A stretch of 64,000 nucleotides of DNA from Trypanosoma brucei (GCA_000002445.1 CM000207.1:1088001-1152000); one strand, 5' to 3'; positions 45,039 through 64,000 are shown, counted from the stretch's first letter. Notes: a model not told the origin generated them from the letters alone. Translations and numbers: made by a program.

Positions 45039-45102
45039 GAGCGCGTGGGCGCCACAAGTTTATACACTATTTGTATCAAGTTTTGCTGTCTGCCGCTATG
45101 GC

Positions 45103-46584
45103 TCATAACAGTAAAAATAACGCCAGTGGCGTTTGGAGGTTGTTCACACGGCTTCGGATAGCTCGTCTTCGCGTCGCGGCCACGCATGCATCTCCATTCC
45201 ACTCACATCCCATTTCCGCTTTTAGGCCGGCACATGTTTGCTCCCGCTTGTAATCGTTGCATTCAAGTAAAGGGGAACTGTCCCCCCCGTCTCCTTCGTC
45301 GTTTTTTACTGCGGCACCAACGACGGACTCCGATATGCCTTCTCTATTACCGTTGCTTTGTTCGAGTCTGGGTGAGCCCGGCCATTTATTTCTACCCTCC
45401 GCACCTCTGCTTCCTGAGTGAGGGCTGCCACCCCCCCTGCCGGGTCTGATTTTTGTGTGTTTCGTGTTTAAGGCCATTATTTCGTCTTCTAACTCACTTA
45501 ACCTCGCGTCGATGGCGCTTAGTTGGTCTATAGCATCGGCTGCCGCCTTCATTTTCTCCAGCCACGGTAGGGTCGGATTATTTCGCTTGACGTTGCTTAC
45601 ACTGTATTGCACGCAGCGTCCCTGCCCGGTTTTGATGATTCCAGTACAACCTGTGGCCAAATTACCCTCAAACTTGCCTAGCACTGTCAAATCCATGCCC
45701 CTTGTACTCGAGGGCCGAAGCCGCTTGAGAAGCAGATTCATTGCGTCCGAAAGACTTTTCCTCGAAAGCTCGGCATTACTGCCAATTTTCTCGCATTGGT
45801 GTTTGAGATATCCCCATCTTTCTTCTCCAGCCTGACTGGGTATCCACGTGTCGCTATTGCCCCCTTTTTCGCATTCCGCGCAGCAACCCTGGTCGCTTTC
45901 AACGGCACTTCCCGATGCACCACATAGACACAATAAGTCAATACTCAATGCCAAACCAGCCAAACTTCCTGCAAATATCCCTCGGCCGCAAACATCCTTG
46001 CGACCGTATGTTCCCCTCATTACCTCCCCATTTTGTTGTCCGGACCCATAGAGTGCCTCTATCAGATTTTTTTCTATTGATGTCTCCTTCAATATTCTCC
46101 ATAATCCATCATTATCTTTCATGCAATCCTCGGCACGTTCTGCGGCATTTGCTACCTTTCTCTTATCTTCTTTACTCAAGGCACTCCCGGTCCATACCGC
46201 ATATTTGTCCTTTTCAGGACCCCCAAGCTTGCTCCTTGCTCCTGTCCAAAATTTCCGGTGCCCCTCATTTGTTTCGTGAGAATGTTTTCTGTCGTCCGCT
46301 ATTTCTTCCCAATCTTTAGTTGCTCTCTCCAAATCAGAAAAACTCTGATACTCTACGGCCAAGCTTATAGCTCCAATGTTTGCTGCTGTGTCTTCGACTC
46401 GCGCAAGAAGTGCCGCGTGGTCTTCGGAGTTGCTCGCCAAATTAATTAAACCACACAACGCCCTAAAGTCGCCCTCATTTTCTGCACCCTTTGCAACTAG
46501 TGCCGCGCGCGGAATCAAAGGCAGCGTTACTATCGACACAAAAATAGCCCACCTCCCGATCAACATGCGCACTTTTTCAACCAC
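45103..46584 (-). CDS. Variant surface glycoprotein (VSG)-family gene, 493 aa
   Basis: N-terminal signal peptide (MLIGRWAIFVSIVTLPLIPRAALVA). VSG-type N-terminal motif ENEGDFRALCGLINLA. Internal DLLCLC motif. Four-Cys C-terminal module (CNDYKREQTCAGLKAEMGCEWNGDAC) and a hydrophobic C-terminus (TPLALFLLL*). Sits in an AT-rich context unlike the upstream core. Confidence 0.7.
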   Translation of the reverse strand: MVEKVRMLIGRWAIFVSIVTLPLIPRAALVAKGAENEGDFRALCGLINLASNSEDHAALLARVEDTAANIGAISLAVEYQSFSDLERATKDWEEIADDRKHSHETNEGHRKFWTGARSKLGGPEKDKYAVWTGSALSKEDKRKVANAAERAEDCMKDNDGLWRILKETSIEKNLIEALYGSGQQNGEVMRGTYGRKDVCGRGIFAGSLAGLALSIDLLCLCGASGSAVESDQGCCAECEKGGNSDTWIPSQAGEERWGYLKHQCEKIGSNAELSRKSLSDAMNLLLKRLRPSSTRGMDLTVLGKFEGNLATGCTGIIKTGQGRCVQYSVSNVKRNNPTLPWLEKMKAAADAIDQLSAIDARLSELEDEIMALNTKHTKIRPGRGGGSPHSGSRGAEGRNKWPGSPRLEQSNGNREGISESVVGAAVKNDEGDGGDSSPLLECNDYKREQTCAGLKAEMGCEWNGDACVAATRRRAIRSRVNNLQTPLALFLLL

Positions 46585-48964
46585 CGCTTTTCTTTACAAA
46601 CTCTAGTCCCTTTAAATGGCTCTTTGAACACACCTCCACAAAGTTTACCAAGAAGTAAAAAATGAGTGAAAACGGAGCAGAAGATGCCTGCCGCGTTGAG
46701 CAGTGCACTCACTTGCCTGTGCGCATTGTGATGGCCATACTGTTTTCAACGCCCACTAAAAAATGACCATTCCTCTCATTATTTAAGCGAATGAACTATA
46801 TATTTACAAAACATTTTTGCATGTATTAGTTTATATCAAAAGTGCCAATTTTCTAACCAGAACAAGGGGATGCACAACTGCGAAAACAGCGTTACTAAAA
46901 TAAAATTAGGTAGCAAACGCAGAATCTGATTTGGTGCATGCAGGTGCTGGGGAATTTGTGATATTTTCCAGTTTGAATTCTTAAGAATTGTACACCTTTG
47001 CTTTCGGTAAAAATTCTCAACTTCTTTCAGCTTGGCTTTTGCATCCTATTTAGCTTTAGCTTTAGCGTTTCGTTGGTATTTTTGATTTTCCACTATCTGT
47101 AATTCTGGATTCGTTACCCGCTACGACTGCAACAAATCCACGCCTCTACCTTCCATTAAAAGTTCATCTATATACTGAATTGGCTTTTGATTTTTTTCTT
47201 TAGTTAGCACCTTGCTTCTCAATTTCGAATTTCCTCCACCACACTTCCCATACCTACATCAACTGACTTCTAATTTGAAAGTTATTTTCTCACCATCTTC
47301 TAGTTTATCCGGGCGTGGTTTTGTCCATTTTCAACTCTGCCCTCTCTAATTTTGGAATGGGTTGTAAAAGCCACTTCTGACGGGTTCAAATTGTTTGGAC
47401 CGTCGACACTCGACGCCATTTTGACGAAACTTCCAATGAAAGCCGGTTCTTTCCTTGATTTTCGGCCAAAAACGACGAAATTCGTTGCCTTTGTTGAGCG
47501 CCCGCCTCGCGTGACATCAAAGATTTTAATTTCCTCCACAATCTTATGACCACTTGCTCCTATAACCAAGCACTTTGACTCACCTTGACAGTTCCTTTCG
47601 ACAACCTCCCACCCGCTGGCGGCCAGATCTCCTACACAGAAACGGTTGTGTCCTTGTTCTCTCTGTGGAAACATATTTATTCTTTCATCAATATTCCTCC
47701 CGTTTACAGTGCCAGTTTTGTTTCCTCTTTTCGTAAAGCTTCTGACTCCCCAGTTTCGCCAGTGATCCTCTAATCACCATAATTCATGCGAGGTCACACA
47801 CCCTGATAAAATTAAGGCATCTTTACCATGCCAACTTTAACATGTCAAGGAAGGTTTAGGACATTTACAACGAGCCCTTAGTTTATTCTATCTGTTCACA
47901 AACCCTCACTCAAAGTCCCTGTTTTGATATACCACAGACCTTTGTGGAGCCGCCTGAGTTTAGAGGAATTTCCGATCCAGCGATGGTATTTCTTATCCCT
48001 GCACCGGTTGAACAAGTGAGGAATTCGTCATAAAAGGTGGCGCATTCGAATGTGATGATATTCAATCCGCAGTTTAAACCACCAGCATTGCCTAATTTTC
48101 CGAAGCGAAGTTTTTTCCGGGACAAAACATACGCATAACTTCTTTATGATTTTCCCTAAACAAGAAAGAATCAAATTTGATGTTGTCATAATTTTTCAAT
48201 AATAATAACAAAGAAAAGATATTAGCACTCTCTGAGGTTCGCTCACTTAAATTTTAAATGCAGATATTAATAGTGGTAAGTCTCGTGAGCCACTCTTTCA
48301 CTTTCTAAGAGTAGAGCAAACGACTCCAGCTCCTGAAGGTGTTTTGGAAAAGCAGCTCTCTCCGCAACCTCTTTTTGAAATTGTGAAGTATGATATTCCT
48401 AGATCTATTAGGAATACACGACCTCCGATGCTGAAACAAACAAAAACATTGCTTACTTACTAGCCATTAGCCCCGTAGTTAAAAACCTTTACTAGAGTTT
48501 TAATAAGTCATCTTTTTGACTCAAAAGAGGTAACGTGTCATGTGTATGATATCAATCACTACACTTGATGCGAACTCATCCTCACGCACTACATACAGAG
48601 TGCCTGCAGAGTCAGGAAACTTTGTGTAAAAACAACAAAAAACCTCCGCGTTTCTTCCTTAAGTTTGTAGACAATATTTTGAAGTAATTATATTGTGGGC
48701 TAAAACTGATCCATAATTACTTCCTTTCTCTCCAGCTCCACCTTCTCGTCGCACCATAATTGCCTTTAGAAGAGGTAATAAATCACCTGTTTTTCTCAAG
48801 TACAACTGCGACGTTGTCGTTATGGTTTGTTTTTCCCTTCTAGAACGTTAATCATCCACATTCCATGTAACCTTTACCTTTATAAAATATGACACTAAAA
48901 TCCACTATTATCCACATTTATATTGTTATTATTAACATAAAGAAGCCACGCGTGTTAGATTGCG

Positions 48965-50110
48965 TTATATCAATAGCAACAAATACACCAACAGAGGTGA
49001 AATGATTTGAGTTTCATTTTTTGGTCGAAGTGGCTTTTGTGATTGTCGTGACGATTCTGTAGTGTTTGTTTCTCTTGAACTAAACGGATCAGTGTCCGTA
49101 GTAGTTTGCGTATTTGTATTTGCATTTGTACCTGATGTTACGGATGCCTCGCTCTCTGCTGCTGTTTGAGGGTGTTGTGGGTGTGGCTGAGCTGGGAGTG
49201 GTTTATTTTTTTCTTCCACATTTTGCTCCGGGGGTTGCACAACAGGTTGTGAAACCCTAGGTTGTTGGTGCGTTTTCCCTCCTTCTGGATTATTTTCTTT
49301 CGATACTGGCGGCCCCTCATTCTTTCTTGCCTCGTTTTGAGGGTTGGCCAGTTTTTCGATAAGTTTTTCCAGTCGTGTAAGCCACTCGACGTTCAGCCTT
49401 CCCGTTTCCTCACCTCCCAGTTTGTACATAACACAAGGGGCGTCCCTCAGATTATCTGAAGCTCCGCAGGATTGAGTGATTGGTGGACTTCCGTGTCCAA
49501 AGCGCTTTGTTTCGCTGTTTCCCGTTCCTCTTTCCCTTTCCTTTAGTTTTGTTGAAAGATTCTCCTTCATTGTTTTCAAAGTTTTGGCATCAGGTCTCGC
49601 AGCGTAAATTGCTGTGGAACATTTTTCCATAACGCTTTTCCAATGCTGTTCTGCTTGTGTTCCGTTGCTCCAGCTTTATTCACCATTTTGCCATATGTTG
49701 CTTTCATAGCACAGATTGACCATTTCGCCTTTACCATTTTGTGGCTTGCACAAACACAGAAGATCTACTGCCAACGCTTTACCTGCAAAAACAACTTCAC
49801 TCGACGTCACTGCATCTACGTAACCGCAGTCATTATAGCGTCGATCTTTTCCATTCCAATTAAGGGAGCCATCACTTCCATCTCCGTACAATATTGTGTT
49901 TATGGTAGTGTTATATTCGTTTTCATTGTCGCCTACTTCATCCTCGTTTTGTTTAACCAACTCTCGTATTCCCAGTGTTAAATTTAAAAAACTGCATAGT
50001 GTGTCAAATTCTTCTTTATTCTTTACGGAGCCGTCTGGGGATGCCTGACAACTCACTTCTTTTATCACCAAAACCAGGCATATCAAAAACCTAACTGAGT
50101 ATTTCCACAT
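48965..50110 (-). pseudogene. VSG-superfamily paralog split by a frameshift (N-terminal ORF 49676-50110, C-terminal ORF 48965-49630) with a P/Q/T-rich mucin-like stalk and a hydrophobic C-terminus
   Basis: N-terminal part has a signal peptide (MWKYSVRFLICLVLVIKEVSC), NKEEFDTLCSFLNL and ALAVDLLCLC. C-terminal part is …QPPEQNVEEKNKPLPAQPHPQHPQTAAESE…TNANTNTQTTTDTD…IISPLLVYLLLLI*. The two halves lie in different frames and overlap by about 45 nt. Confidence 0.6.
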
Positions 50111-51013
50111 TTTCTTGGCTTTCCCGTCTAACTCCTAAGTTTCAGAGGAAGAATTTGTTCAGCGAGTTTCGCAAACATTAAAACATATTTTTGATCTTCA
50201 AATAGAAGCGCAAATTTATATTATACATGCACCATCATACAAGTAATGCACCACGTTAGAATGTGAAAACATTCAGTTAAATTACTGATGGGTAAGCATC
50301 ATTCGCTGCTGGGGCAAATCATTGTTGCATTCAGAGTCGACAACTAATCAATTATGTGCAATTTTGCTTTGCAACAAAAGAAATGCTTATTTTCTTGATG
50401 TGCGTGTTTACTCTTCACCCCTGCGGATCACCATTAACAGGAGCAAACCCTCTTCTTCATCACTTTAAAAACAGAAAAAATGCATCACATACTAGTTCTC
50501 ACACGCTCCAAAAAATTTCGCTTTATAATGTACTTTTTAGAAAGGTTTTCATGGTCCACATGGCTTCAGTGGTCATTCAATTTCACGACAGGTTACCTCT
50601 CTACACAGATCGCGCAGTGCACCACTCCAATAGTCCCTTTTTTACTTCATACCCTTCATAGACTCTGACCCTGTGAAGAGGGGGAGTAGAAGCATGCTCA
50701 CTCGTGGATCGCGTCCGCAGAAAAAATAAAAATATTCTATTACTATATACGCGGACTACGCTACAAGTATAGAATCCTATAATCCATTATGAATGTGTTT
50801 TCTGTTCTTTAGACCGAGGTGTACGCATTTACACCTTCCTACAGTCAAGCTATACGCACAAATCATAGAACGAAATGATAAATTGTAACGGGGGTAAAAC
50901 GTAATGGATGTGTCTCCAAACACGATTATCATCGAATCAATATAGCTAAAGTGATGTGGACTCCAAGTTAGTAATCCCAAAAACAAAACCATTGCACAAA
51001 ATACAACATTGAA

Positions 51014-52129
51014 TCACATAACCAACATTTCTGCAAAAAATATTAGACCTATTATGGCGTGTTGCTTCCTCATTTTGAATCCTTCTTCATCTATAACATC
51101 GTCTTCATCCTCACCTCCCTTGCGCTTCTTCCCACTCTCCTTGAAATATCTACGCACTATCGGGCTCTGAGTTAACAATTCTTTTAGTTTATTTTCATGC
51201 TTTGCAAAGGATGTAAGGGTTGGCTGTACATCACGGTACTGTTTTGTAATACTTTCATATCCTCTTCTAACCAAAGTGTAGTTCTTGATCAGTTCGCGCA
51301 CCATGTCACTAGATTTCAGAATAACGGCAGAATCTTTTTTGTAGGTAACAAACCCTCCAGTAGTCCCCACTATGAAAGATCCAGGTCCTCCATTTGCAAC
51401 CTTTTCCGTGCCCATGATCCAGCACTTTGTGCTGTTATCGGCTGTTAGTTCGACTTCTCGGTTAGCTGTGTATTTTTTAAGCACAGACAATATACCATCA
51501 TCTGAATTATCCTCAGTGAAAGACATATTACATTTGTTTGGGGCTTCCGCTGCTTCGTATTTGCAATTACCTTCCCCACCACTTCCACATCCATTCTCAC
51601 CTCCCGAAGAGCCTGCTTCCTTCACCAAACAACACCATTTACTTTCTTCATCCTTCGTTTTCTCAAACAATACTACCAAATCCCTCAATACTTGTCCAAT
51701 TGACAGTGATGCATTCACAACATGATAGGAGACTCTCACAATGTCTAAGAAACTAGCATCCATTACCTGAAGAGCATTATCCATATTATTCATTACTTTT
51801 TCCATTTCCACATATGTTTTCTTTACATTTTTCATCTCACTTCCATTAACAACCCCTATCTTCTCCAGACCCTGCACTATTGCTTTCCATGTTCTCCCCT
51901 TTACACCATGCCGATGCCGCCATTCCCGAAACTTATCTACCATTCCTGTCGCATTTTGGTGCTTCTTCAGAATCTCAGCACTCACAACCCTTAAGGCATG
52001 ACTGAGGTTACACAATGTTTCAGCTCCCTTGAGAGTCATAGCCTTTCCAGAAGGTTGCCCCTCCACTGTCCCAGTGACAATGCCAAACACTGTCAGGCAC
52101 ACTGCAAGAAAAAGTGATATCACCTTCAT
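51014..52129 (-). CDS. VSG-superfamily (VSG/ESAG6-7/PAG-like) surface glycoprotein, 371 aa
   Basis: Signal peptide MKVISLFLAVCLTVFGIVTGTVEG. KGAETLCNLSHALRV N-terminal motif. Cys cluster KWCCLVKEAGSSGGENGCGSGGEGNCKYEAAEAPNKC. Acidic/lysine-rich tail then a hydrophobic end, HAIIGLIFFAEMLVM*. Confidence 0.65.
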   Translation of the reverse strand: MKVISLFLAVCLTVFGIVTGTVEGQPSGKAMTLKGAETLCNLSHALRVVSAEILKKHQNATGMVDKFREWRHRHGVKGRTWKAIVQGLEKIGVVNGSEMKNVKKTYVEMEKVMNNMDNALQVMDASFLDIVRVSYHVVNASLSIGQVLRDLVVLFEKTKDEESKWCCLVKEAGSSGGENGCGSGGEGNCKYEAAEAPNKCNMSFTEDNSDDGILSVLKKYTANREVELTADNSTKCWIMGTEKVANGGPGSFIVGTTGGFVTYKKDSAVILKSSDMVRELIKNYTLVRRGYESITKQYRDVQPTLTSFAKHENKLKELLTQSPIVRRYFKESGKKRKGGEDEDDVIDEEGFKMRKQHAIIGLIFFAEMLVM

Positions 52130-52296
52130 TATTTATCTAAAAACGAAACAAGTTTACTTGAGGCAATTTAATACAGTATATCTCATTAGAAACTAACACG
52201 CACATGAACACACATATGCATACATACACACCATTTTAAATGCAACAAAGACGCAAAAAAAACATAACATAACATATTTGGTAATGTAATATTAAA

Positions 52297-53715
52297 CTAA
52301 AAGATAAGAATAAGAGATAAGAATAATAACAATATAAACCCCCACGTTTCCATATTCAAATGAGTAAGTCCATCATTATTTACCTCAGTATTATCACCTT
52401 CGCTGTCACCCTTTACTCGGCTACTTTTCCATAGCTCTGCATCACCACCTAGTTTCACCTCAAGAAATATTTCCTCGGCCTCGTGTTGATACTCTTCCAA
52501 CTCATGAAGATGACTGTCAGCTTCTTTTGAATATTTATCCATTTCTTGCAGTTGCTCGGTAGCGTTAGTAAGACGATTGTACCATGGAATTCCACCATTT
52601 TCAAGTGTGTACTTGTAACTGACACATGTGAATCCAGCAGTATGACCCGTGCATGTCCGATTTTCGTTTTTATCAGTTCTCACATAACCAAAAATACCCT
52701 TCACCTGATATTTATCCTGTTCCAAATTCACTAAGGCATCAAACTGAGCTAATGCACTTTTCAAAGTCTTTACATTCGATGCAACGTTTTTGTACACACA
52801 AGCTTTACTAATCACATCCCATGCCTCAGTGTAATTGTATGTTATGTTGTCTGGGCTGCAGGGGCTGCTATTGGCCTCACAGTAATTTGCCATCATTGTC
52901 CAACTTCCATTTTTTGGTCTTCTTATTTCATCTTTACAAGGACAATTGAACCCATTATAAACACTATCACTATATTTGCCCTTACCGCTCTCTTCTTTTT
53001 TTTTATCTTCATTATCTTCATTATCTTCTTCCTCTTTCTCGTCTCTTTTCTGCCTCATATCTTCAGTCACATTTATAGCCTCTCCCACACATAGACAGAA
53101 AAAGTCATTGATTAGTGTCTTTCCAACCAGCTTGTCTCCATAAGAACCGCAACTCGTGCCTGCATTATCAATACTATTGAACAGCAGTGACTTGTTTCCC
53201 CTCATGGCTTTCTCTAGAGTTTTATTCTCATTTCGTGCCACATCCACAGCGTCTCCATACACAGCTTTCAACATATTGTCTTCGGCAGAACGACTTGCAT
53301 TTAACGCTTTTGTCCTATTCACTTCTATTTCTTCCTTCAGCTTTTTCGCCTTTTCAAGCAGTTGTATCATCAACTGATATGCTGTCGTGCTGTTAGATGA
53401 ATTGCTCGAGCCTTTATTACTTCCAGCGGCCCCCACCACACTGACCATTTCCTCCAACTCATTCAGAATATTAGCTTCTTTCTCACGGTTCTTGAAAGAG
53501 GGTTGTGGTGCTTCTGCCTGCGTAATTCGGTAAATTTTGCACAGTGTCTCGAACTCACCGACGTTATGGTATTTGTAACTATCGTCGATGTAATCCGTAA
53601 TGCTTCCCCAGTCAACCATATCAGGCCGCCATTTGTACGACCCCATATCTCCCTGAAAGGAAGGAGATAAAACAGCTGCAAAAAGCCCAACAGCGAACAC
53701 TATTTCACACCTCAT
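52297..53715 (-). CDS. VSG-superfamily surface glycoprotein, 472 aa
   Basis: Signal peptide MRCEIVFAVGLFAAVLSPSF. NVGEFETLCKIYRI. INDFFCLC motif. Many N-glycosylation sequons. Acidic low-complexity insert (EKEEEDNEDNEDKKKEE). Hydrophobic C-terminus WGFILLLFLSLILIF*. Confidence 0.7.
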   Translation of the reverse strand: MRCEIVFAVGLFAAVLSPSFQGDMGSYKWRPDMVDWGSITDYIDDSYKYHNVGEFETLCKIYRITQAEAPQPSFKNREKEANILNELEEMVSVVGAAGSNKGSSNSSNSTTAYQLMIQLLEKAKKLKEEIEVNRTKALNASRSAEDNMLKAVYGDAVDVARNENKTLEKAMRGNKSLLFNSIDNAGTSCGSYGDKLVGKTLINDFFCLCVGEAINVTEDMRQKRDEKEEEDNEDNEDKKKEESGKGKYSDSVYNGFNCPCKDEIRRPKNGSWTMMANYCEANSSPCSPDNITYNYTEAWDVISKACVYKNVASNVKTLKSALAQFDALVNLEQDKYQVKGIFGYVRTDKNENRTCTGHTAGFTCVSYKYTLENGGIPWYNRLTNATEQLQEMDKYSKEADSHLHELEEYQHEAEEIFLEVKLGGDAELWKSSRVKGDSEGDNTEVNNDGLTHLNMETWGFILLLFLSLILIF

Positions 53716-56700
53716 TGTGGCTGTTTTTTTTACTTTTATCAGTTAAACAAATTGGAGAAAAACCTCATCATCGCAGTCATTATTGTTATTGGTAGACGCA
53801 CTCAACAGACGTATACAATGAAAAATATTGAAATTAATAAGTGCCTGGCTCAAACCAACTACAACAGGACCCAACAAAGAGTAAATCACATTCCAAAACA
53901 CATTTACATGAGTTCCCTCTCGTCATGCTGGATATCAACATAAAGTTCCTTTACAACTGTTTTGTTTCTCCAATATCTTCCTCCACCAAATTAACCTCCA
54001 CTACCTTAACTACCATTCTGGCTTGTCCCAATTTTCTAACTGAGTTGCGCTTCTATTTTCTGTATTTCCTCGTTAGTGACTTATCCACTACCCTAATGTG
54101 TACCTGCACTTTCATACTATTTTTTTTTCACATCCTGTACCAACTCCTTTAAACTCTGCTTCTGAGTCCCATTTAGCATATCCCGCTCTTTTCATAAGCA
54201 CATTGAAAATACTCTTCGTTACTCTTTTTGTGAGCATGTGCAGCTTCCCGTCCTCCATTTTCTTAGACGACACATTGTTTAATATAAAAGTTGTATCTTA
54301 AAAATACCATCAGTGGACACTTATTATTGAAGCCCTTGTTATACGGTGACGTTACGGGATATAATGTCAGTCACCAACACAAAAAAAACGGCTCCAGAAT
54401 AACAAGAGACCCTCTTTGTCACCACCCTCGTTAGAATTATTTACCACAATCAAAGATGTCACCATTCTTATAGATACGCTGGTGACAAAAAAGGAGGTCA
54501 CATACGTAACCATTTATCCTCTCAGTGAACTCTCATCACCTTTACTCCACACAAGTTCGTTACATTAGCAAAAAACAAACGGCAAAAACGCTACTTGGGT
54601 TAGCTCAAAATCAAACACTCCATCCTTACAGCAAATACAGAGAGCATTCACACACTCCATTCCCCCACAAAATACAGATGGTGGAGACAGCCACAGTTAT
54701 CACAACTCACAATTAAGATAACTCAAGCAAAGACACTCCAACGAAATAGACGACCAATAACACGAAACATGTGAGCACGGACATGCAACGTCTTGCATGT
54801 ATTTTATTATGGAGTAGGGGGAACGTATCCGAAAGTATTTGCTACACAGTAAAATTAGTAGTATTAGCCACGGCGCTATCGAGATGTGTCGAGCAGTACC
54901 GAATCACAGTTGTTGTGGATTTCGTTGAAATGTGGGTAGAAAAGAGGTAATGTTGGATAACGTGGCAACAAGCACGGAAGATGGATGGCCAGTAGTAGAG
55001 GCAAACATGTTAAATCTACCTTACTGGAACCGTTACTCTAAATGTGACAGAACACAGTGCCTTCATTTGCAACACTTATCACCGCACATATTTTCTTCCT
55101 TGCTCGACACATCGGCTTCCAGCCAAACACAAATATGGGAGACTACTGCAACGGTTTCCATTACTAACACTGTGTTTTTTCTGATTCCAGCGGCTTTTCA
55201 TACACGACCATGCAAAAAAACCAGCCCTTCAAACTATTCAACCGGCAATAATAAAGTGCACTAGGATAGTGCATTTTACTAGCTATTCCGAAAGATGTTC
55301 TGCCCTTGCTGTTGAGCTTACTGTAGCAATTTATCGCAGTGTTTCGTACCACCTTATCAAACGTAGTCAACTGCACATCCTCTACCATTTCGCTCCCGTT
55401 TTACTTAATTGGTATTCTTGTTACAATGCTGGATCCTTGACATTACCTGTTTCTTTTGCTGTTATCATTTAGGAAGGTTGAGACCCGTCATGTCCCTTTT
55501 GTGAATCCCATCCGTGACCAAATCAATTACAAACGGAGTGCCATGAATGCTTCTCGCTGTGTCCCCACTGTTGTGACAATAACACTTGTAATGCATGTCA
55601 GTCTAACAGCGTTTTATAACCTTTGAGCAGATTTCAATGGGCCCAATATAGACCACAAGGTGGGTAGCTATTGCATTGGCGTCTTCGTTCCGTCAACTCC
55701 TTTTTCCTGACTCAACAAGTCTCACCCAATCGAGTGCCAGCGCGCCAAAGCAACTGCATACTGTTCATTAGGTAGATCATTCCGCAAAGTTTTTTTTGGT
55801 CAGTCTGCTATATAGAGTGGACCGTCTAGGAAGGCTCTTTGTTTTTACCTCCTGCAAGGAAGGGTGAGAAACGCGCTCTCGTACGCCATTGCCTCTCGCT
55901 GCCTGCTCATGCATTCGAATTATTAAAAAGGTGCGCTCAGACATTCTCCCTGGTCCTACTCAACCAATGTCAGAAATGTCGGGTAAGATTTGTGTTTGAG
56001 GGTTGTGAGCAATCTTTGTTGAGGAAACTACCTGTCTACTGCCACCGCAACATCTGGCTGCTTGCAGGTTTATTTCCCCTTCCCGTGTTTCTGGCGCTGT
56101 GCAAATGCAAACACTTTCTCGTCTCCGAAGAGCAAGGTCTCACACTTCACTTGAATGGGCACTTCACCTTCGCCAGCAATCCCAGTTAGTGGCACTAACA
56201 AACCGCTTCAAGGAATACATTTGCTTTTGATAATTGTGCCACTTACTACGCCACTCTACAAGAAACACAAAACACAAACTAAACATGACGGCTTGAAACG
56301 ATAACGTTAAGACATGGTCACTGGGGAAGGGGTAAAGAAGACACATTATCTGCGATCAGGTTCACCTTACTAGCATGCATTTGTAGAATCATGTATATCG
56401 TGAATTCAACCACTGAAACAAAGAAAACTGCAGACCATTTACCAGCGCCTTCATGTTACAGTGCACCTATTATTATTAAGCTCAGAATAATGCGACGGCT
56501 AAGATTATTTGCAGCACGCATGCTCTTGTGGTTTAATTAAATCTGTCGTGGAAGCAAACCCGCAAAAGTAATGAAAAAAATATATAAGCAATGCACCCTT
56601 TAAACAAGTTGCGTTTCTTAAATGAAAAAACATCGGTGAGGCACCGTTTTTACCGTCATGAATTTCCTCGTTCAGATTATCACGCTTTTGAAACTTGTTT

Positions 56701-57330
56701 CCAATTGACTTAAGTTCTTTACATATCTTTACCTTTAGCAATTCACTCACTTATTGAGTATTCGTCCCTTCAAATCCTTTATGCGCTTCAGTTATCCGCA
56801 TTGATTAAACACATTTTTAGGTTAGAAATATAATCTCACATTTGACTGCTGAAACAATCACTCTCTTCCACGCAGCGCAAGCCTACGTTTCCGTTAAGCC
56901 GCTCTGCAGTATGTTAACCCTTGCGTGTTCAGTGACTCTTATTATACATCTTTAAAGAAACTCCTCATTGCGGTTTTTTGATAGTATTAACCTCATATTT
57001 CCTTTTCCTATTTAAAATCAATTATTTGAGATCGTAAATCGTTTGTTGTATCACATTTCTGCATTTTTTAATGGTTGTACTTTTCCGCTTACACGATAAA
57101 TAGCCTTAATTTCTTTTCCTCTCTTGCGACTTTTAATTTTAGCATGTTCGCTCTTACTAATTCAGAGTTATTCGACCATCTTACAATGACTTGCCACAAC
57201 AGCCCATGCACATATCCCTTAATGAAAACACTTGCAAGTTAGTTACTGATTCACAGCCTTACTTCGACCTATGCGGCGTTCACTTTATTCAGCAGTTGTG
57301 ACCTGATGCATCAGCGTAAAGCAACAGACA

Positions 57331-58119
57331 TTAGAAGATTATGAAGCTCAGTACTGTGGATAGTATCATCGCGTGTCTTTTGTGACCTACACCGTTCCTT
57401 CTTTGTTCACTCTCTTTAGAAGACGAGGTCTCATTTGTACCGCTTGTCACTACATCTGAAGGTCTACTCACTTCTGGTTCGGACGCTGCGCTTCGCAGTG
57501 GCGATGCAACATACCTGTCATCCTGCCCCGTCACTTGTGGTGGCGGGACAAATTTTTGCGTTTCTTCTTCATTACCTTGCCTGTTCTCCCTTCTTGTTTT
57601 AGTTTCACCTTCATCTCCCATCTTTTTTTTTGCCTGAACCCTCTGATGGTCGCTAGTGACGGCAGCAGCGCCCACATAATTCGCTTGCGGGAGTTCGTTA
57701 GATGACTTCACACTCGATTCTGGACTTCCATGGGGTTGACCATCATCAAGTTCCGTGGCCACTTCAGGAGACTTCTCCTGAGGCTTTGAAGTTTGGTGAC
57801 TGCTCCCATTGCCACCGTTTGAACTCGAGTCTGTAGACCGCGGCCCCAATGGCTTTTGTGTGCTGGTTTCTTCTTGGAGTTGTGACTGGGGTTGTTGGAT
57901 AGCGGAAGCTGTTACGGGTGGATTCTGTTGGTGAGTAGAGCTGCGCCGGTTTGCTGTCACAGTCCCACATTCCAGAACTCCAGTGGTGGGAGAGGTACGG
58001 TATTCAGTGCATGAATCCCTGCTCATAGTGACATCCACTGCGCTCACAACCCGCTGTTCAACGCCAGCCACGCACAACATTAGAATCAAAAATAGGCTCG
58101 TTGCAATCATGAGCATCAT
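57331..58119 (-). CDS. Surface-type protein (262 aa): signal peptide, then S/T/Q/P-rich mucin-like region, then a hydrophobic C-terminus. Stalk-only relative of the neighbouring VSG-like genes.
   Basis: MMLMIATSLFLILMLCVAGVEQ is the signal peptide. QQNPPVTASAIQQPQSQLQEETSTQKPLGPRSTDSSSNGGNGSSHQTSKPQEK… is the stalk. …HAMILSTVLSFIIF* is the hydrophobic end. Composition resembles the stalk of the 48965-49630 ORF. Confidence 0.5.
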   Translation of the reverse strand: MMLMIATSLFLILMLCVAGVEQRVVSAVDVTMSRDSCTEYRTSPTTGVLECGTVTANRRSSTHQQNPPVTASAIQQPQSQLQEETSTQKPLGPRSTDSSSNGGNGSSHQTSKPQEKSPEVATELDDGQPHGSPESSVKSSNELPQANYVGAAAVTSDHQRVQAKKKMGDEGETKTRRENRQGNEEETQKFVPPPQVTGQDDRYVASPLRSAASEPEVSRPSDVVTSGTNETSSSKESEQRRNGVGHKRHAMILSTVLSFIIF

Positions 58120-61011
58120 TTTCCCTCCTTAAAAAAATTGATCCTGCGAAAAAGAAGTACAAATCCTTTACAAACTAAAATTATAACTATAAAACTTATC
58201 AACGTACGCAAGTACGTATATTCTTTTTTCCTCTTAAAAACACTCCTATCACCACGATGCTATTCGGTCGAAGATATAATCAAGTCAACAATTTTCTACT
58301 GAGGCAAAAGCTATTGAATGAACTTGTTTAAACGAATGTCATCATCAACGCTCAGTTGCTTCCCAACAGCTAGGGCACTTGGACAATCAAATAGTATACG
58401 ATGCAAGTCTTTCTGCTGGTTGATACTTACATTCAATGAAGGTCTCCATTGCCAATTGCACATAATACTTTTAATAGTTTTGCCCCCATAATTTTCACCG
58501 ATAATCTTTTTTACATTCTTTTCAGATCACGGGATGCGCTCCTAACTTTTCCCTTATTACGTTACGACTGCTTGGACCCCCAGACTGCTTTTAGAACCAT
58601 TAGTGGATAAAGAAATTTATATATCATTTACAGATACGCACTCACGAACAATATTGCTTGCCAATAGAACATTTTTCATCAAACATGCCGACACCCACTG
58701 CAGAAGCACGAACATAAAAAATAAAAAAGAAATTTGAAATGTAAAATAACATATTCCTTACCTGTTTCCTCTCCACTCTTTTTTGCTAATATGCACAAAT
58801 CGAATATTAAAATGCACCCACAAAGTCCCCCAGTTCGTACCCCGCAGCCATAAAGACAGTGGGCAACAACTTGAAATAAATGATACCGTTACGTGTATGG
58901 CCAGGTTAACTAATTATGAACTCATATGGGGGAAAAAATAACAACAGCCAATTCGACACCAAACACTTTATTGAAAAATTAGAAGGCATATCGCATCCCA
59001 TTAGACTGCCATATGATCTGCGTGTGATTATTTCTACAACTTTGTATAATGTTAGTGCACCTCCTCTCGACATAAATACCATTCCGCTTTGTTTTTTAAG
59101 CTGTCGAACGTTTCGCTCCCCCGCTTACCATACAAAATTAAACATCTTCTTTCTTTAGATTTTTAACTCCTCTGCTTTCCGCGTTTTGAATAGCAGAAAA
59201 TAACATAAAACGGTTATTTTGTATCGGAAAATCCCCTGTGACGTATTGATTCCGTCATTTGCTTCTAAGACCGAGAGAGGGAGACGAATATGATAGCCCG
59301 CGTTCAGTCTCCACTTATCCCCCATGTTTTATGTTTGCAAGTGCAACATCTGTGATTCGGGGAGTCTCCGTTCTAACGAAAAGATTGCAAAGCTTAGAAA
59401 GGTTTAAACAGTAGAAGTAAAAGATTCAAAAAAATGAGCACACGATAGCAAGAAGAAAACTTAACATTAGGTAGTCGAACGCTTTCAGAAACAAATTTTT
59501 TTTAAAATGCAAATACAGTCTACAACTTACCATTAAAGCCAAATTTGGAACTATGGTACATACAGGCAGACACACATGCTGCTTGTCATTCCGTCTATTT
59601 TTCTTTTCACGGGAAAGATTACTTGGAAAGGTCTATGAAGATTTCTTTTACTTGCACTACCCTTTAACATCGTTTCATTGACCTTCATCTCTGTACGTTG
59701 AACCATCAAAACACCTTTCGCTCCTCTTCTCCAGTTCCCCCTCAGGTGCTTCAATGATTCCTCTTTTCTCAACACTACTGAGACCTTTGAAAGCAGAAAG
59801 TAAAAAGTTTTTTTCACCACTTCTTCACCCTATACTGCAGCTGATTGAATAAAAGTGTACATTCAGTATCCCTTTTTTATTATTTTTTATTTGTACCTCT
59901 GAATCAGTGTTTTTCTTTTATTTACTGTCGTTTCCATTACTAAATCTTGGTTGTTCCACACACCAATTAAACTTTGTCAGGCGTTTCCAGAATTTCTGTC
60001 ACTTTTCAGTTTCAAAATTTTCGCGGATTTTTGTTTCTGAGAGCATTGACCGCCTTGGTAACGCCATACTTCGCTTATTTAGTTTCCCGCATTTCTGACG
60101 CCTGAATCATCAGCACCGCAAGGTACATTTGAAGCTTATAATACTTTTCACTTCCAACCTCTGACGTTCACCAGTTTCCCTACGATCGCTCTACCATCGT
60201 ACCATTTCCGATATATCTCCGCAAGAAAAAAAAATACAACAAAAGACTGGATTAGCACATTTTACACGGCTAAAATAACCACCGGAAACACGAACGAAGC
60301 TTCGAAGTGCGTCCTTGCAGCTTTTTCCACAGAACCCACAGAGGGTACAAGCTTCCCTGCCAGTCCCCTGGGAGCCACCATCGTAATACGGCAACCACAA
60401 TCTAACTATGCGCACCACCTTTTCCACCGTGTATTCTACAACGTCTTTACAGTCCTAAACACACACAGTGGATCACGAAGACAGGCAATCAGAGAGAATT
60501 TTACTTCGTACACACATGATACATACCAGCATTCGAGAAGTCATAAAACAACCACCGCAGAAAGTTTAGACTCTTTTCTATGGAAACAAAACATATCAAA
60601 AAAACAAACGCAAAGCACATGGGTGTGTGAAAACTCGCACAAAAGCATGTATGCAAACATATTGGTGAATGTGAGGAGATGCATATAAACATTTTCGTTA
60701 GATTGCAGAATTGATACTATTTAAATTATCAGTAAGATTGACGTCAAAAAGCAAGTAAGGGAAGTTGCTGTGGACCTCGTTAAATTGAGAGTAGAGGGAG
60801 GTGATATTTGACATCATGTCCAGCAGTACGGAAGGCTACTGTCCGGCTGCAAAAGGTGCGATGAGGGGTGCAAATATTTTTTGTACTTCGACTATGAGCC
60901 GAAAAAAGCGGCGTCATTTTGAGGCCATTGCAACATATTACACGAATTGATTGTTGCACCATTTATATACAACTTGCCTCTCGGTAGATTGAAGCATTTT
61001 TTCAAAGAACC

Positions 61012-61660
61012 CTATATTACATTTATTTCAAGGCAACCATCTTTATATTTTTGGAGGCTGTTATCGGTCGCATTGACTTCCAGTGAGCAAGTATGATCGC
61101 CACACTTGACTGGGAGCTCCCCTGCACCTTTAATTTTTCCGTCTTTACACTTCTCAGTTTCCCCATTTCTGTCCTCTATAGCTTTGACGTCGTCCCACAC
61201 AGTCCTAGCAATTTACGCAATAGCTGTGTAATATTTATTTGCTGTTATGAGGGCTTCAGGTAATTTTTTTCCTCACTGCCCTTACACTTTCATTTACCTC
61301 TGCGAATAATCCACCTACCTTAGCTACAAGATCTCCCATTTCATTTCCATAGGATATAAGTTTTTCCAATTTTTTACTTTCCTTTCCCACTGCACCGCTA
61401 ACAACACTCAAATATTTGGTGCTTTCACCTGTTTTACTTTCCATATCATCTAATATGCGAGATGCATTTGCGTACACTTCTTCATTCACGAGCAACCTGC
61501 ACTCTCCACCTGTATATAATGTATTTAATGCATTCGAAAGGCACTTGAGGTAGCATACAGTCTCGTGTAAATTCTGGAAAGAATGATCATCCACCGATGT
61601 ACATCTATCCGTGGTACCAAAGCAGACCACGAGAAGAGGCAACATTAACCGAACCCTCAT
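61012..61660 (-). pseudogene. Truncated, frameshifted VSG-superfamily fragment related to the 371-aa gene
   Basis: ORF 61256-61720 carries a signal peptide (MRVRLMLPLLVVCFG) and HETVCYLKCLSNALNTL, comparable to ETLCNLSHALRV. ORF 61012-61200, in another frame, continues with a Cys-rich stretch (EKCKDGKIKGAGELPVKCGDHTC) comparable to KWCCLVKEAG…C of the 371-aa paralog. There is no C-terminal half. Confidence 0.45.
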
Positions 61661-64000
61661 CTTAACCTTCACTGTGAACTTTTCTATGCGGATATAAACA
61701 GAACGACACATACATTTCAAACAAGATCGGAGTGTACCGCATGCTCAGTGTGCTGATAACCGAGCGGTTACTGACAATATCACAAAAATTACGTAGCCGC
61801 AACTGTACCACTTACAGCTGGTTTGATAACCTCACGTTTCTTCACGGAAACAAAAAGATGCAGCGATATCGTTGGTTCTTACATTTAATTCTATAATATG
61901 TCCAGTTGCACAATTCAAGGTGAAATTGTCCATAACCTTTCCATGAAGTCACAAAATGAAACACCGTGTTAATAGTTAAATACCTGTACAACTTATCATT
62001 TCCAAGCACAGCATCTTCTGACGGGAAATAAACTCACACCATGCTCTTCACACATATCGTCAAATATGATCAAGGTGAAACTTGTGAAGTATGATTTTTT
62101 CCCCACGGTCACCATTTACAGCGAAGGTAGCCCCACCAAGAAAGCGGAATTAACATTTGATGCCTACAACAGAAGCCAGATGTAAATCTTCACGGGATGG
62201 CAATGCAAGGAAGTTGGGGATTTACTGCAGTCATGGCATTCTCATTCGAGGCCTCGAACGGGTCACAGCTTTTGAACACCTGTATAATAACAGCACTATT
62301 TGGAAGAAGAGGAGAAGCGTAAACATTAGTGTGAATATATCATTGGCAACTTGAACAAACTGCTACGAGGTTCAGAAAAGCGTGCAAAAAGCAAAGAAAT
62401 ACTCCTCGCAATGGCACACGAAACTGAAGTACCTGGAAGAGGTAGGTGCCATCAACGGTGCATCAATGGTGATGTATCATTTGATTCTGTGGAAGTCTTC
62501 ATCATCCTCCCTCAATAATTATCGATAAAATACACCACAGCGAAGAAACTGCGACCACACACATGCATGCCGCCTTCAAACTTCAAAACCTTCCTCTTAA
62601 ATTCTTACATAAAGTATTCCCCTCACGTTTCTTCCAGTCTTCTCCTATCTTTATTACCAGTTTCCGGCCAGAGGAGTCCAAACTGGAGCCTGCTTCATTG
62701 CGTCTGTCAACTTTTTCATGGCAGACAATGACTCGAATAAAAAACGAATATCCGCCACCTCGGCATCTTCAAGCAAATGTAGCTCACATAAGCAAAAAAA
62801 ATCTCCCTACGTGTCGTTGTACGCTTCCTTTCCCCCCACTTCCAACCAGTTTGCACCTTAGACGATATTTATGAAGTAAGAACGAGAAAGTAGCAGTACT
62901 TTTGCGACGAAATGTGAATATGGAGACAGACGTGATTCCATTCCGAGGCCGTTGACAGCACATGATGCAGAAGTCTTTCGGAGAGAATTAGATATGAAAA
63001 CACCAAACATAATCAATATTAACCTTCAAACAAATACAATCCGATCAGTTTCCTGACACGTGCCGCCCCTGTTGTAATGTCGGGGTTGCTGTGAGAACTA
63101 GAAAGATACTTAAAGCCACGTTCAGTTGCAATAATTGTGAGGGCTGTTGCACGTGATGTTGTTAACACAAATTCTATGACAATAACGCACCACCGCAGAA
63201 CCATTCCTTACGGCCGACTCTCTCAGTTTCCTGTTTCCCATAAATAACGCGAACAAATCAAACAAACATTTTCTTCGTGTCAGAAGGGCAAGGAGGCTCT
63301 TTCAACCTCGCCTCAACACTCATCCACTCACCCAGCGACAGTTCTTCAAAGGGGCTACAGCACCAATTAACACGACGTTTGTTAGGTTGAGGCAATTGTT
63401 GCAAAGTAGCATACTGAGACTTCCGTTGATTCTTATTTCGCCACCGCACTCGTCCTCTTCGCTCATTTCATCAATCAGCATTTTAATCATATTAAGAATC
63501 CACAAGATGCTGTCAACAAGCTTGAGGTGCCCACGCTAACCCCTCGAGTCTCAAATGCGTTAAATCAAGTACCCGATAAACAATTAGTGTATACCACTTA
63601 CCTCGTTACTGCAAAAAAAAAAAGGAGTCATAAAGCAGCTTCAGCCCCCCTTCTCGCATTGTTTACTCAAAGTTCCCCTACTCACAAAACTCAACCGTTC
63701 CATCAGCACCAAATGACATTAGAGCCTTTCACCCCTCAGACCTCCAGAAACCCTGACTAGTCCACTCCCCTTCGCCGTGGTACTCCGAAAATTCATAGGA
63801 CGCTAATATATCTTTGTTCGTTGGAATGCGCCTTTCTGACCACCAAGTCCTCCCGCCAGACTGTCAACATCTAGATTACACAGTCTTCCCATTTTACTTT
63901 CTGTATGTTGGATTGACGTAAATTCACCAGCACGGAGCATCCATCTAGTCTTTTAAGTCCAACCTACACACACACCGTGGGTACCGTGACAATTGCCCAG

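What the first reader, a model, noticed from the sequence alone, without database searches (positions are those of the whole stretch)
45103..61720. Array of divergent VSG-superfamily paralogs sharing a D-[LF]-[LF]-C-L-C motif, several with mucin-like stalks instead of a canonical VSG C-terminal domain
Six loci, at 45103, 48965, 51014, 52297, 57331 and 61012, encode signal-peptide proteins with hydrophobic GPI-signal-like ends. Three of them (45103, 49676 and 52297) share the unusual [IV]-D-[LF]-[LF]-C-L-C motif. Five (all but 57331) share an N-terminal x-F-x-x-L-C-x-[LI] element reminiscent of VSG A-type N-termini. The members at 48965 and 57331 replace the Cys-rich VSG C-terminal domain with a P/Q/S/T-rich stalk predicted to be O-glycosylated. 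That combination (VSG-like head, mucin stalk, GPI) is not the classical VSG, ISG or ESAG6/7 architecture. Intergenic spacers are long (1-3 kb) and AT-rich with no housekeeping genes.
Basis: partly seen in the sequence, partly recalled or inferred. Interest (0 to 1): 0.65.

Follow-up and report, generated by a model that had tools for sequence, protein, structure and literature searches.

The report
Annotated T. brucei chromosome-internal VSG/ESAG island
This is a known, already annotated cluster of surface-protein genes in the core of Trypanosoma brucei chromosome 9 (one VSG-type gene, one VSG-related pseudogene, ESAG11, ESAG2, ESAG9 and an ESAG1 pseudogene), not a new family of VSG-like paralogs.

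Summary
The window is T. brucei brucei TREU927 chromosome 9. Four of the ORFs are letter-for-letter identical to deposited proteins:
- 45103-46566: "VSG, putative" (EAN76754)
- 51014-52129: ESAG11 (EAN76756)
- 52297-53715: ESAG2 (EAN76757)
- 57331-58119: ESAG9 (EAN76758)

That gene is a pseudogene copy, 98% identical, of the intact VSG-related gene VR16 (Tb09.v1.0300), which lies further along the chromosome. The locus at 61012-61720 is a full-length ESAG1 pseudogene with two frameshifts and three stops.

Only three genes have a VSG domain, and it is the b-type (Pfam VSG_B), not the A-type. ESAG9 and ESAG1 are unrelated families. ESAG11 shows only a weak resemblance in fold to trypanosome three-helix surface receptors.

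The D-x-x-C-L-C and F-x-x-L-C motifs are general marks of b-type VSG domains. D-x-x-C-L-C occurs in 52 of 77 family representatives. The "VSG head, Pro/Gln/Thr-rich stalk, hydrophobic tail" layout recurs in at least ten other VSG_B-like clusters and in the chromosome 3 paralog of VR16.

There are no 70-bp repeats. The position, at a convergent strand switch, is typical of published VSG-related genes and VSG/ESAG islands. Verdict: real, but ordinary and already described.

The parts
45103..46566 (-). b-type VSG-family gene, 487 aa from the ATG. It has a signal peptide, a VSG_B N-terminal domain, a Gly/Ser/Arg-rich linker, one four-cysteine C-terminal module and a short VR-type hydrophobic tail (..TPLALFLLL).
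   Evidence: Identical to EAN76754/XP_827084 'VSG, putative' of T. b. brucei TREU927. Pfam VSG_B 2.9e-73 over residues 25-369. Matches the solved structure of VSG1954 (8b3w) at 1.5e-23, with LSIDLLCLCG aligned to LKFDLICLCG. An 89% identical ortholog lies on a 2.44 Mb T. b. equiperdum contig.
47300..47674 (-). 124-aa ORF, probably not a real gene.
   Evidence: Identical to EAN76755 'hypothetical protein, unlikely'. No Pfam hit.
48965..50110 (-). Pseudogene copy of the VSG-related gene VR16. It is a single reading frame with one in-frame TAA at 49676-49678. Layout: signal peptide, shortened b-type head (about residues 23-265), a cysteine-free Pro/Thr/Gln/Asn-rich stalk of about 107 residues, and the tail PLRPKNETQIISPLLVYLLLLI.
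   Evidence: The two halves share a frame, and the stop is TAA. 98% identical to intact EAN76762 = Tb09.v1.0300, which has Glu at the stop position. Pfam VSG_B on both halves, profile positions 144-225 and 247-343. Stalk composition.
51014..52129 (-). ESAG11-family gene (371 aa).
   Evidence: Identical to EAN76756 'ESAG11, putative'. The family has 10 clusters, all from the T. brucei group of subspecies (Trypanozoon), 62-98% identical. The AF2 model has three long helices (33-91, 96-151, 274-320), mean pLDDT 60. The top 15 Foldseek PDB hits are all trypanosome three-helix surface proteins but are weak, E 1e-3 to 0.1 and TM 0.24-0.53.
52297..53715 (-). ESAG2-family gene (472 aa), a b-type VSG derivative.
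   Evidence: Identical to EAN76757 'ESAG2, putative'. Pfam VSG_B 1.4e-23. Carries the DFFCLC motif at residue 204.
57331..58119 (-). ESAG9-family gene (262 aa), mostly low-complexity Ser/Gln/Glu/Pro/Thr-rich sequence with three cysteines.
   Evidence: Identical to EAN76758 'ESAG9, putative' and to a T. equiperdum protein. No Pfam hit. The T. equiperdum contig L001 is 98.1% identical to window 54872-60297.
60698..61660 (-). Full-length ESAG1 pseudogene with two frameshifts and three in-frame stops.
   Evidence: Three-frame translation. The rejoined conceptual protein matches Pfam ESAG1 at 2.9e-107 over profile positions 2-226 of 227. The intact N-terminal ORF alone matches only profile positions 2-43.
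38942..45102 (.). Convergent strand-switch gap between the plus-strand housekeeping genes and the minus-strand island.
   Evidence: ORFs of 200 aa or more lie on the plus strand up to 38941. These include a PhyH-domain gene at 37799-38941, an RNB-domain gene at 33065-35368 and an ARF-like gene at 35782-36363. The island genes are all on the minus strand. GC skew changes sign near 44 kb. No tRNA or Rfam family was found.
62786..62803 (-). Isolated fourth DFFCLC hexapeptide in a broken frame. It may be a relic of another ESAG2/VSG_B-like gene.
   Evidence: Motif scan. No Pfam hit and no significant tblastn match around it.

Best explanation
The region is a chromosome-internal 'VSG/ESAG island' of Trypanosoma brucei brucei TREU927 chromosome 9. 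[quoted passage not shown]

In the direction of transcription (high to low coordinates) it holds:
1. an ESAG1 pseudogene
2. ESAG9
3. ESAG2
4. ESAG11
5. a VR16-like VSG-related pseudogene
6. a b-type VSG-family gene

It is the first unit of a segmental duplication. The second unit, beyond the window, holds intact VR16 (Tb09.v1.0300) plus ESAG11 and ESAG2 copies that are 98% identical.

The genes belong to at least four unrelated or only distantly related surface-protein families. Only three of them share the b-type VSG domain, and that domain explains the shared D-x-x-C-L-C and F-x-x-L-C motifs.

How it works, inferred from published work rather than shown here:
- The genes are transcribed polycistronically with the chromosome core, not from a telomeric expression site.
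- Each mRNA is controlled separately, probably through the long AT-rich untranslated regions.
- The intact products enter the secretory pathway and serve as low-abundance invariant surface or released proteins. VR proteins, ESAG2 and ESAG11 act in bloodstream forms. ESAG9 acts in stumpy transmission forms.
- The Pro/Gln/Thr-rich segment of VR16-type proteins most likely serves as an extended, disordered spacer between a shortened VSG-type head and the membrane anchor.
For: **Shown here**
- Four ORFs are identical to TREU927 proteins on a 3,057,547-bp contig, with consecutive accessions EAN76754-76758.
- The VR16-like gene is 98% identical to Tb09.v1.0300 and differs by a TAA where the paralog has Glu.
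- ESAG11 and ESAG2 have 98% identical paralogs seven accession numbers later.
- Pfam gives VSG_B for three genes and ESAG1 for the rejoined pseudogene.
- No tandem array with a period near 70 bp exists in 38-64 kb.
- There is no DNA duplication inside the window.
- The strand switch is visible in the ORF layout and GC skew.
- D-x-x-C-L-C occurs in 52 of 77 VSG_B-like cluster representatives, and [FY]-x-x-L-C near residues 26-67 in most of them.
- Cysteine-poor P/Q/S/T-rich C-terminal regions followed by hydrophobic tails occur in at least ten further clusters and in the 41% identical chromosome 3 paralog conserved in T. b. gambiense.

**From papers**
- VR genes lie at chromosome-internal strand-switch regions, lack 70-bp repeats, and VR16 = Tb09.v1.0300 is raised in bloodstream forms. 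ESAG9 genes Tb09.160.5400, Tb09.160.5430 and Tb09.v1.0330 are raised in stumpy forms (PMC2771046).
- VSG/ESAG islands exist on core chromosomes, including a chromosome 9 case with a segmental duplication (PMC2854126).
- ESAG2 derives from b-type VSG, ESAG11 is related to ISG, and ESAG1 is T. brucei-specific (PMC3605285).
- VR proteins, ESAG2 and ESAG11 are surface-associated, and ESAG1 is not (PMC4587319).
- ESAG9 is repressed by REG9.1 in slender forms (PMC5380359).
- The expression-site gene order is ...ESAG2-ESAG11-ESAG1-VSG, and one expression site carries a VR plus ESAG9 in place of ESAG2-11-1 (PMC2567434).
Against: - The second duplicated unit could not be fetched, so the duplication rests on protein identities and accession order only.
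- Locus tags for the window genes other than the paralog Tb09.v1.0300 are inferred from order, not read from a record.
- It is not certain that the chromosome 9 island in Figure S1 of PMC2854126 is this one. Chromosome 9 has other VR clusters (Tb09.244.22xx-23xx).
- The single TAA in the VR16-like copy could be a sequencing error rather than a true pseudogene.
- Transcription mode, anchoring, glycosylation and the spacer role of the stalk are all inferred.
- The AF2 model of VR16 was poor, with mean pLDDT 45.
Confidence: 0.93

Rival explanations
1. One reading: an array of divergent paralogs of one VSG superfamily that together define a new architecture (VSG-like head, mucin stalk, GPI anchor), distinct from VSG, ISG and ESAG6/7.
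For: Three genes share a VSG_B domain. VR16-type proteins do have a head, stalk and tail layout. The ESAG11 model weakly resembles trypanosome three-helix surface proteins, a fold class that includes VSG-derived receptors.
Against: ESAG9 and ESAG1 have no detectable relation to VSG. Pairwise BLASTP finds one significant pair only. The head-stalk-tail layout is that of named VR genes and recurs in many VSG_B-like clusters. Every intact gene is already annotated.
Confidence: 0.04
2. The island is a decaying, functionless remnant of the telomere-proximal end of a bloodstream expression site (ESAG2-ESAG11-ESAG1-VSG) that was copied into the chromosome core and is being lost.
For: ESAG2 is followed directly by ESAG11, 167 bp apart, and the array ends in a VSG-type gene, as in expression sites (gene order from PMC2567434). 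Two of the six genes are pseudogenes.
Against: Four genes keep intact reading frames. The ESAG9 protein is 100% identical and its flanks 98% identical in T. equiperdum. The VSG-type gene has an 89% ortholog in T. b. equiperdum. Published arrays show bloodstream-form or stumpy-form regulated mRNA from chromosome 9 VR and ESAG9 genes. Phylogenies place core copies as sister groups to expression-site ESAGs, read as core-to-expression-site origin. There are no 70-bp repeats.
Confidence: 0.08

Closest known systems
VSG-related (VR) genes of T. brucei, in particular VR16 (Tb09.v1.0300) and its chromosome 3 paralog
   Same: b-type VSG N-terminal domain. Chromosome-internal position at a strand switch. 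No 70-bp repeats. A non-VSG C-terminal region. The window copy is 98% identical to VR16 (PMC2771046).
   Different: The window copy carries an in-frame TAA, so as sequenced it is a pseudogene. The gene at 45103 is annotated as a VSG, not a VR, and keeps one four-cysteine C-terminal module, although its tail is of the VR type.
Chromosome-internal copies of ESAG2, ESAG11, ESAG9 and ESAG1 (GRESAGs) and the ESAG2-ESAG11-ESAG1-VSG end of bloodstream expression sites
   Same: Identical to the annotated ESAG2, ESAG11 and ESAG9 proteins, with a full-length Pfam ESAG1 match. ESAG2 is followed by ESAG11 and the array ends in a VSG-type gene, as in expression sites. One expression site (BES11) carries a VR plus ESAG9 (PMC2567434).
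   Different: Not telomeric. No 70-bp repeats. ESAG1 lies upstream of ESAG9 and ESAG2 rather than after ESAG11, and it is broken. ESAG9 and a VR are inserted.
Fam1 (Tb927.6.1310 array), a b-type-VSG-derived family lacking the VSG C-terminal domain
   Same: Short (347 aa) protein with a signal peptide and predicted GPI anchor, a b-type VSG head and no canonical C-terminal domain, in a tandem array at a strand switch (PMC3605285).
   Different: A different locus and lineage. Direct similarity to the window genes was not tested by name, because the representative library carries no names.
[quoted passage not shown]
   Same: Thr/Pro/Ser-rich low-complexity regions between a signal peptide and a hydrophobic tail. 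ESAG9 has been suggested to have T. cruzi homologs (PMC3605285).
   Different: No sequence relation was tested or shown here. Mucin-type O-glycosylation of these T. brucei proteins is unproven. The stalks contain N-glycosylation sequons (NTT, NET).

Membership tests
b-type VSG N-terminal domain (Pfam VSG_B, PF13206) | HMM match above the curated cut-off (25 bits) | tested here: met
   45103: 247.6 bits. ESAG2 at 52297: 84.1 bits. The VR16-like halves: 46.3 and 33 bits. Intact VR16: 91.5 bits. Not met by 51014, 57331 or 61256.
b-type VSG N-terminal domain (Pfam VSG_B, PF13206) | Conserved cysteine motifs: [FY]-x-x-L-C near the mature N-terminus and D-x-x-C-L-C mid-domain | tested here: met
   Present in 45103, the VR16-like gene and ESAG2. 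Aligned with the same motif in the solved VSG1954. D-x-x-C-L-C occurs in 52 of 77 family representatives.
Canonical archive VSG | 70-bp repeat array upstream, and a subtelomeric or telomeric position | tested here: not met
   No tandem repeat with a period near 70 bp in 38-64 kb. The array abuts housekeeping genes at a strand switch.
Canonical archive VSG | Cysteine-rich C-terminal domain and a canonical GPI signal (e.g. ..SILVNKQFALSVVSAAFVALLF) | tested here: inconclusive
   45103 has one four-cysteine module (ECNDYKREQTCAGLKAEMGCEWNGDAC) but a short non-canonical tail, TPLALFLLL. The VR16-like gene has no cysteine in its last 130 residues. No GPI predictor was available.
A-type VSG N-terminal domain | Match to the A-type VSG HMM | tested here: not met
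   No A-type VSG model was reported for any of the seven ORFs at E<=1.
VSG-related (VR) genes | VSG-like head, chromosome-internal strand-switch position, no 70-bp repeats, and conservation between strains | tested here: met
   The VR16-like gene is 98% identical to a protein named '(VSG)-related' Tb09.v1.0300 and 41% identical to VR proteins of T. b. brucei chromosome 3 and T. b. gambiense. The definition comes from PMC2771046.
ESAG11 / ESAG2 / ESAG9 | Sequence identity with annotated family members | tested here: met
   Exact matches to EAN76756, EAN76757 and EAN76758. The ESAG11 relatives are all named ESAG11 or ESAG.
ESAG1 (Pfam PF03238) | Full-length HMM match and an intact reading frame | tested here: inconclusive
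   The HMM match is full-length (2.9e-107, profile 2-226 of 227), but only after two frameshifts are rejoined and three stops masked. It belongs to the family but is a pseudogene.
Trypanosome three-helix-bundle surface proteins (ISG65, HpHbR, TfR, GARP, MISP), tested for ESAG11 | Three long antiparallel helices forming the core, with structural similarity to solved members | tested here: inconclusive
   The AF2 model has three long helices, but mean pLDDT is 60. The top 15 Foldseek hits are all of this class, but with E 1e-3 to 0.1 and TM 0.24-0.53. There is no sequence hit to PDB.
Mucin-type O-glycosylated stalk | Demonstrated O-glycans on Ser/Thr-rich repeats | not testable with these tools
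   Only composition could be measured: 15 P, 13 T, 12 Q, 11 N, 11 E and 10 S among 107 residues, with no tandem repeat.

The most novel reading that the evidence does not exclude
VR16-type proteins have three parts: a b-type VSG head shortened by about 110 residues, a cysteine-free Pro/Gln/Thr-rich stalk of about 100 residues, and a conserved PLRPKN..ISPLLV.LLLLI tail. They are kept on chromosomes 3 and 9 and in T. b. gambiense. They could be an uncharacterised invariant bloodstream-form receptor, with the stalk lifting a ligand-binding head to the height of the VSG coat, much as other VSG-derived proteins became receptors. The genes are annotated, but I found no paper in the held library that describes this stalk or a function.
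Probability: 0.15. Interest if true: 0.4.

Novelty: already known. Interest (0 to 1): 0.1.

Why it matters
It matters little as a discovery. Every intact gene is in the TREU927 annotation. The gene classes (VR genes, chromosome-internal ESAG copies, core VSG/ESAG islands) are described in the genome, transcriptome, surface-proteome and cell-surface-phylome papers.

The useful outcomes are corrections:
- The motif is a generic b-type VSG mark.
- Three of the six loci are not VSG-domain genes.

One modest open point remains. VR16-type proteins and their Pro/Gln/Thr-rich stalk have no assigned function.

Tried and rejected
1. A-type VSG affinity: no A-type HMM hit. Rejected.
2. 70-bp repeats upstream of the genes: none found by Tandem Repeats Finder at a minimum score of 30.
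3. The idea that the ORFs are fragments of one repeated pseudogene: no DNA self-similarity within 38-64 kb, and no extra fragments by tblastn. Only 48965 and 49676 belong together.
4. Homology between the VR16 stalk and ESAG9's low-complexity region, suggested by the shared 'VTSGTN': BLASTP E=0.33, not significant.
5. Fetching the second duplicated unit through the look-up of encoding contigs with P0006: not on record. The ESAG9 look-up returned only a 5.4 kb T. equiperdum contig.
6. AF2 of VR16 from a six-sequence alignment: mean pLDDT 45, too poor for a fold search.
7. PDB sequence search with the ESAG11 profile: nothing. ESAG2 against the PDB gave only a weak VSG615 hit, E=0.023.
8. The fourth DFFCLC at 62786-62803 as another VSG_B gene: no Pfam or tblastn support.
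9. The ORFs at 40792-41609 as a glycosyltransferase pseudogene, guessed from a GDDD motif: no Pfam hit even at E<=10.
10. tRNA and Rfam scans of the window: nothing.
11. Barnwell 2010 (PMC2939805) and Monk 2013 (PMC3672941) on ESAG9 are not held.
12. A simple search for polypyrimidine tracts upstream of each ATG was uninformative.
Full report
**What is there**

Exact look-ups identify the source as Trypanosoma brucei brucei TREU927, on a 3,057,547-bp contig whose locus tags begin with Tb09, i.e. chromosome 9.

| Window coordinates | Identity | Evidence |
|---|---|---|
| 45103-46566 (from the ATG, 487 aa) | EAN76754, 'VSG, putative' | |
| 47300-47674 | EAN76755, 'hypothetical protein, unlikely' | |
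| 51014-52129 | EAN76756, ESAG11 | |
| 52297-53715 | EAN76757, ESAG2 | |
| 57331-58119 | EAN76758, ESAG9 (also identical in T. equiperdum) | |

All five ORFs match the deposited proteins exactly. The accession numbers run consecutively with position. The two loci without a deposited protein are therefore expected to be annotated as pseudogenes, and the sequence shows that both are.

**The two pseudogenes**

ORFs 49676-50110 and 48965-49630 lie in the same frame and are separated by one TAA at 49676-49678. Read through, the 381-codon gene is 98% identical to EAN76762, '(VSG)-related', Tb09.v1.0300. That protein has Glu at the stop position. A microarray paper calls this gene VR16 (PMC2771046). 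If the TAA is a sequencing error, they are halves of an intact copy.

The locus at 61012-61720 has an intact N-terminal ORF that matches only positions 2-43 of the Pfam ESAG1 profile. Downstream the frame breaks. After two frameshifts are rejoined and three stops masked, the conceptual 321-residue protein matches ESAG1 at 2.9e-107 over profile positions 2-226 of 227. It is a full-length ESAG1 pseudogene at about 60698-61660.

**Are they one family?**

No. Pfam VSG_B (the b-type VSG N-terminal domain) matches 45103, ESAG2 and both halves of the VR16-like gene (E-values in the interpretation check).

- ESAG11, ESAG9 and the ESAG1 ORF have no VSG hit.
- No A-type VSG model matched anything at E<=1.
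- All-against-all BLASTP gives one significant pair only, 45103 against the VR16-like gene at 6.6e-05.
- Against solved structures by sequence, 45103 matches VSG1954 (8b3w) at 1.5e-23. The VR16 profile matches the same chain at 2e-06. ESAG2 matches VSG615 only weakly, at 0.023. The ESAG11 profile matches nothing.

An AF2 model of ESAG11, built from 11 sequences, has mean pLDDT 60 and three long helices. Its top 15 Foldseek PDB hits are all trypanosome three-helix surface proteins: HpHbR, ISG65, the transferrin receptor, the factor H receptor, GARP and MISP. The scores are weak, with E from 1e-3 to 0.1 and TM 0.24-0.53. This fits the published suggestion that ESAG11 is a modified ISG relative (PMC3605285), but it is not proof.

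**The motifs**

D-[LF]-[LF]-C-L-C occurs in 45103, the VR16-like gene and ESAG2. It never occurred in 100 shuffles of the window, so it is not chance.

It is also not special to this array. The same motif aligns with FDLICLC in VSG1954 and SDISCLC in VSG615. Among the 77 cluster representatives that match the VR16 profile in a library of 1.84 billion proteins, 52 carry D-x-x-C-L-C. Most carry [FY]-x-x-L-C near residues 26-67. The motifs simply report the b-type VSG domain.

- The residue before the motif in ESAG2 is N, not I or V.
- F-x-x-L-C-x-[LI] is met exactly in only two genes.

**The stalk**

The VR16-like C-terminal region (residues 256-362) has 15 P, 13 T, 12 Q, 11 N, 11 E and 10 S among 107 residues. 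It has no cysteine and no tandem repeat, and it is followed by PLRPKNETQIISPLLVYLLLLI.

The 41% identical chromosome 3 paralog is present in T. b. brucei, T. b. gambiense and strain VSG catalogues. It keeps the same layout and the same tail. At least ten further 50%-identity clusters of VSG_B-like proteins show a cysteine-poor P/Q/S/T-rich C-terminal region with a hydrophobic tail. The layout is therefore a recurrent feature of VSG-related proteins.

The VR16 head covers only VSG_B profile positions 144-343 plus the N-terminal F-x-x-L-C element. It is about 110 residues shorter than a full b-type domain.

The AF2 model of VR16 was too poor to use, with mean pLDDT 45. It shows no secondary structure in residues 261-371. 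O-glycosylation is speculation. The stalk does contain N-glycosylation sequons.

ESAG9 has no head domain at all. It is a 262-residue, mostly low-complexity protein with three cysteines.

**Genomic setting**

- Genes of 200 aa or more lie on the plus strand up to 38941. They include RNB-domain, ARF-like and PhyH-domain housekeeping genes.
- The island genes are all on the minus strand from 45103 onward, and GC skew flips near 44 kb. The island therefore abuts a convergent strand switch.
- Spacers are 2398, 903, 167, 3615 and 2580 bp, with GC 0.27-0.41 against 0.50 for the housekeeping part.
- There are no 70-bp-type repeats, no internal DNA duplications, no further gene fragments, and no tRNA or Rfam families.
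- ESAG11 and ESAG2 have 98% identical paralogs at EAN76763 and EAN76764, directly after VR16 (EAN76762). This indicates a duplicated unit beyond the window. I could not fetch it.

In the direction of transcription the order is ESAG1 pseudogene, ESAG9, ESAG2, ESAG11, VR pseudogene, VSG-type gene. The ESAG2-ESAG11 adjacency and the terminal VSG-type gene recall the conserved end of bloodstream expression sites (...ESAG2, ESAG11, ESAG1, 70-bp repeats, VSG). One expression site is reported to carry a VR plus ESAG9 in place of ESAG2-11-1 (PMC2567434).

**What is published**

[quoted passage not shown] VR16 (Tb09.v1.0300), Tb09.160.5350 and Tb09.v1.0290 are raised in bloodstream forms. ESAG9 genes Tb09.160.5400, Tb09.160.5430 and Tb09.v1.0330 are raised in stumpy forms (PMC2771046).
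- Core-chromosome VSG/ESAG islands, often on the opposite strand to their neighbours, are described. One is a chromosome 9 case with a segmental duplication of an atypical VSG and an ESAG indel (PMC2854126). I cannot confirm that it is this exact island.
- ESAG2 derives from b-type VSG, and ESAG1 is specific to T. brucei (PMC3605285). ESAG9 belongs to cell-surface Family 2 and is also specific to T. brucei (PMC5380359).
- VR proteins are enriched in the bloodstream-form surface proteome. ESAG2 is on the cell body membrane, ESAG11 on the cell body and flagellum, and ESAG1 is not on the surface (PMC4587319).
- ESAG9 mRNAs are repressed in slender forms by REG9.1 (PMC5380359). The control acts through the 3' untranslated region (PMC3827541).

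**How it most likely works**

This part is inferred. The island is transcribed with the chromosome core toward the convergent strand switch. The long AT-rich spacers hold untranslated regions that set stage-specific mRNA levels. The intact products are secreted or anchored invariant surface proteins of bloodstream forms (the VSG-type gene, ESAG2, ESAG11) and stumpy forms (ESAG9). The VR16-type stalk is most simply an extended spacer for a shortened VSG-type head.

**Verdict**

The family assignment is right for three genes and wrong for the rest. The architecture is that of known VR genes. Nothing here is new beyond what the annotation and the cited papers already contain. Interest is low.

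Noticed in passing
window 62786-62803 (minus strand): A fourth DFFCLC hexapeptide lies outside the finding's range, in a frame broken by stops. About 0.01 such matches are expected per window by chance, so it may be a relic of another ESAG2/VSG_B-like gene. Neither Pfam nor tblastn supports any homology around it.
   Followed up: partly
window 40792-41609 (plus strand): Two overlapping ORFs (197 and 111 aa, in different frames) lie in the convergent strand-switch gap and contain 'MKGDDDAFIRV'. I guessed a frameshifted glycosyltransferase, but Pfam finds nothing even at E<=10.
   Followed up: partly
window 52130-52296: Only 167 bp (GC 0.27) separate the ESAG2 stop from the ESAG11 start. The other spacers are 0.9-3.6 kb. 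That leaves very little room for a 3' UTR, a polyadenylation site and a trans-splice site. The ESAG2-ESAG11 adjacency matches the expression-site gene order.
   Followed up: no
window 54872-60297; L001 1-5426: A T. equiperdum contig (CZPT02001027.1) is 98.1% identical over 5.4 kb, including the non-coding flanks of ESAG9. The ESAG9 protein is 100% identical.
   Followed up: partly
window 61255-61275 (minus strand): The first ESAG1 frameshift falls at a run of seven A residues (ggaaaaaaatta). It could be a homopolymer length error rather than a true mutation. The three in-frame stops further on still argue for a pseudogene.
   Followed up: no
window 45103-45150 (C-terminus of the 45103 gene) and proteins P0029, P0034, P0038-P0041: A recurrent C-terminal tail of the form ..[SN]-x-I-x-x-P-L-x-L-F-L-L-L is shared by 45103 and several VSG_B-like cluster representatives. 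It differs from canonical VSG GPI signals such as SILVNKQFALSVVSAAFVALLF. It may mark the VR class.
   Followed up: partly
window 47300-47674 (minus strand): A 124-aa ORF annotated in TREU927 as 'hypothetical protein, unlikely' (EAN76755). It has no Pfam hit and lies in the 2.4 kb spacer between the VSG-type gene and the VR pseudogene.
   Followed up: yes
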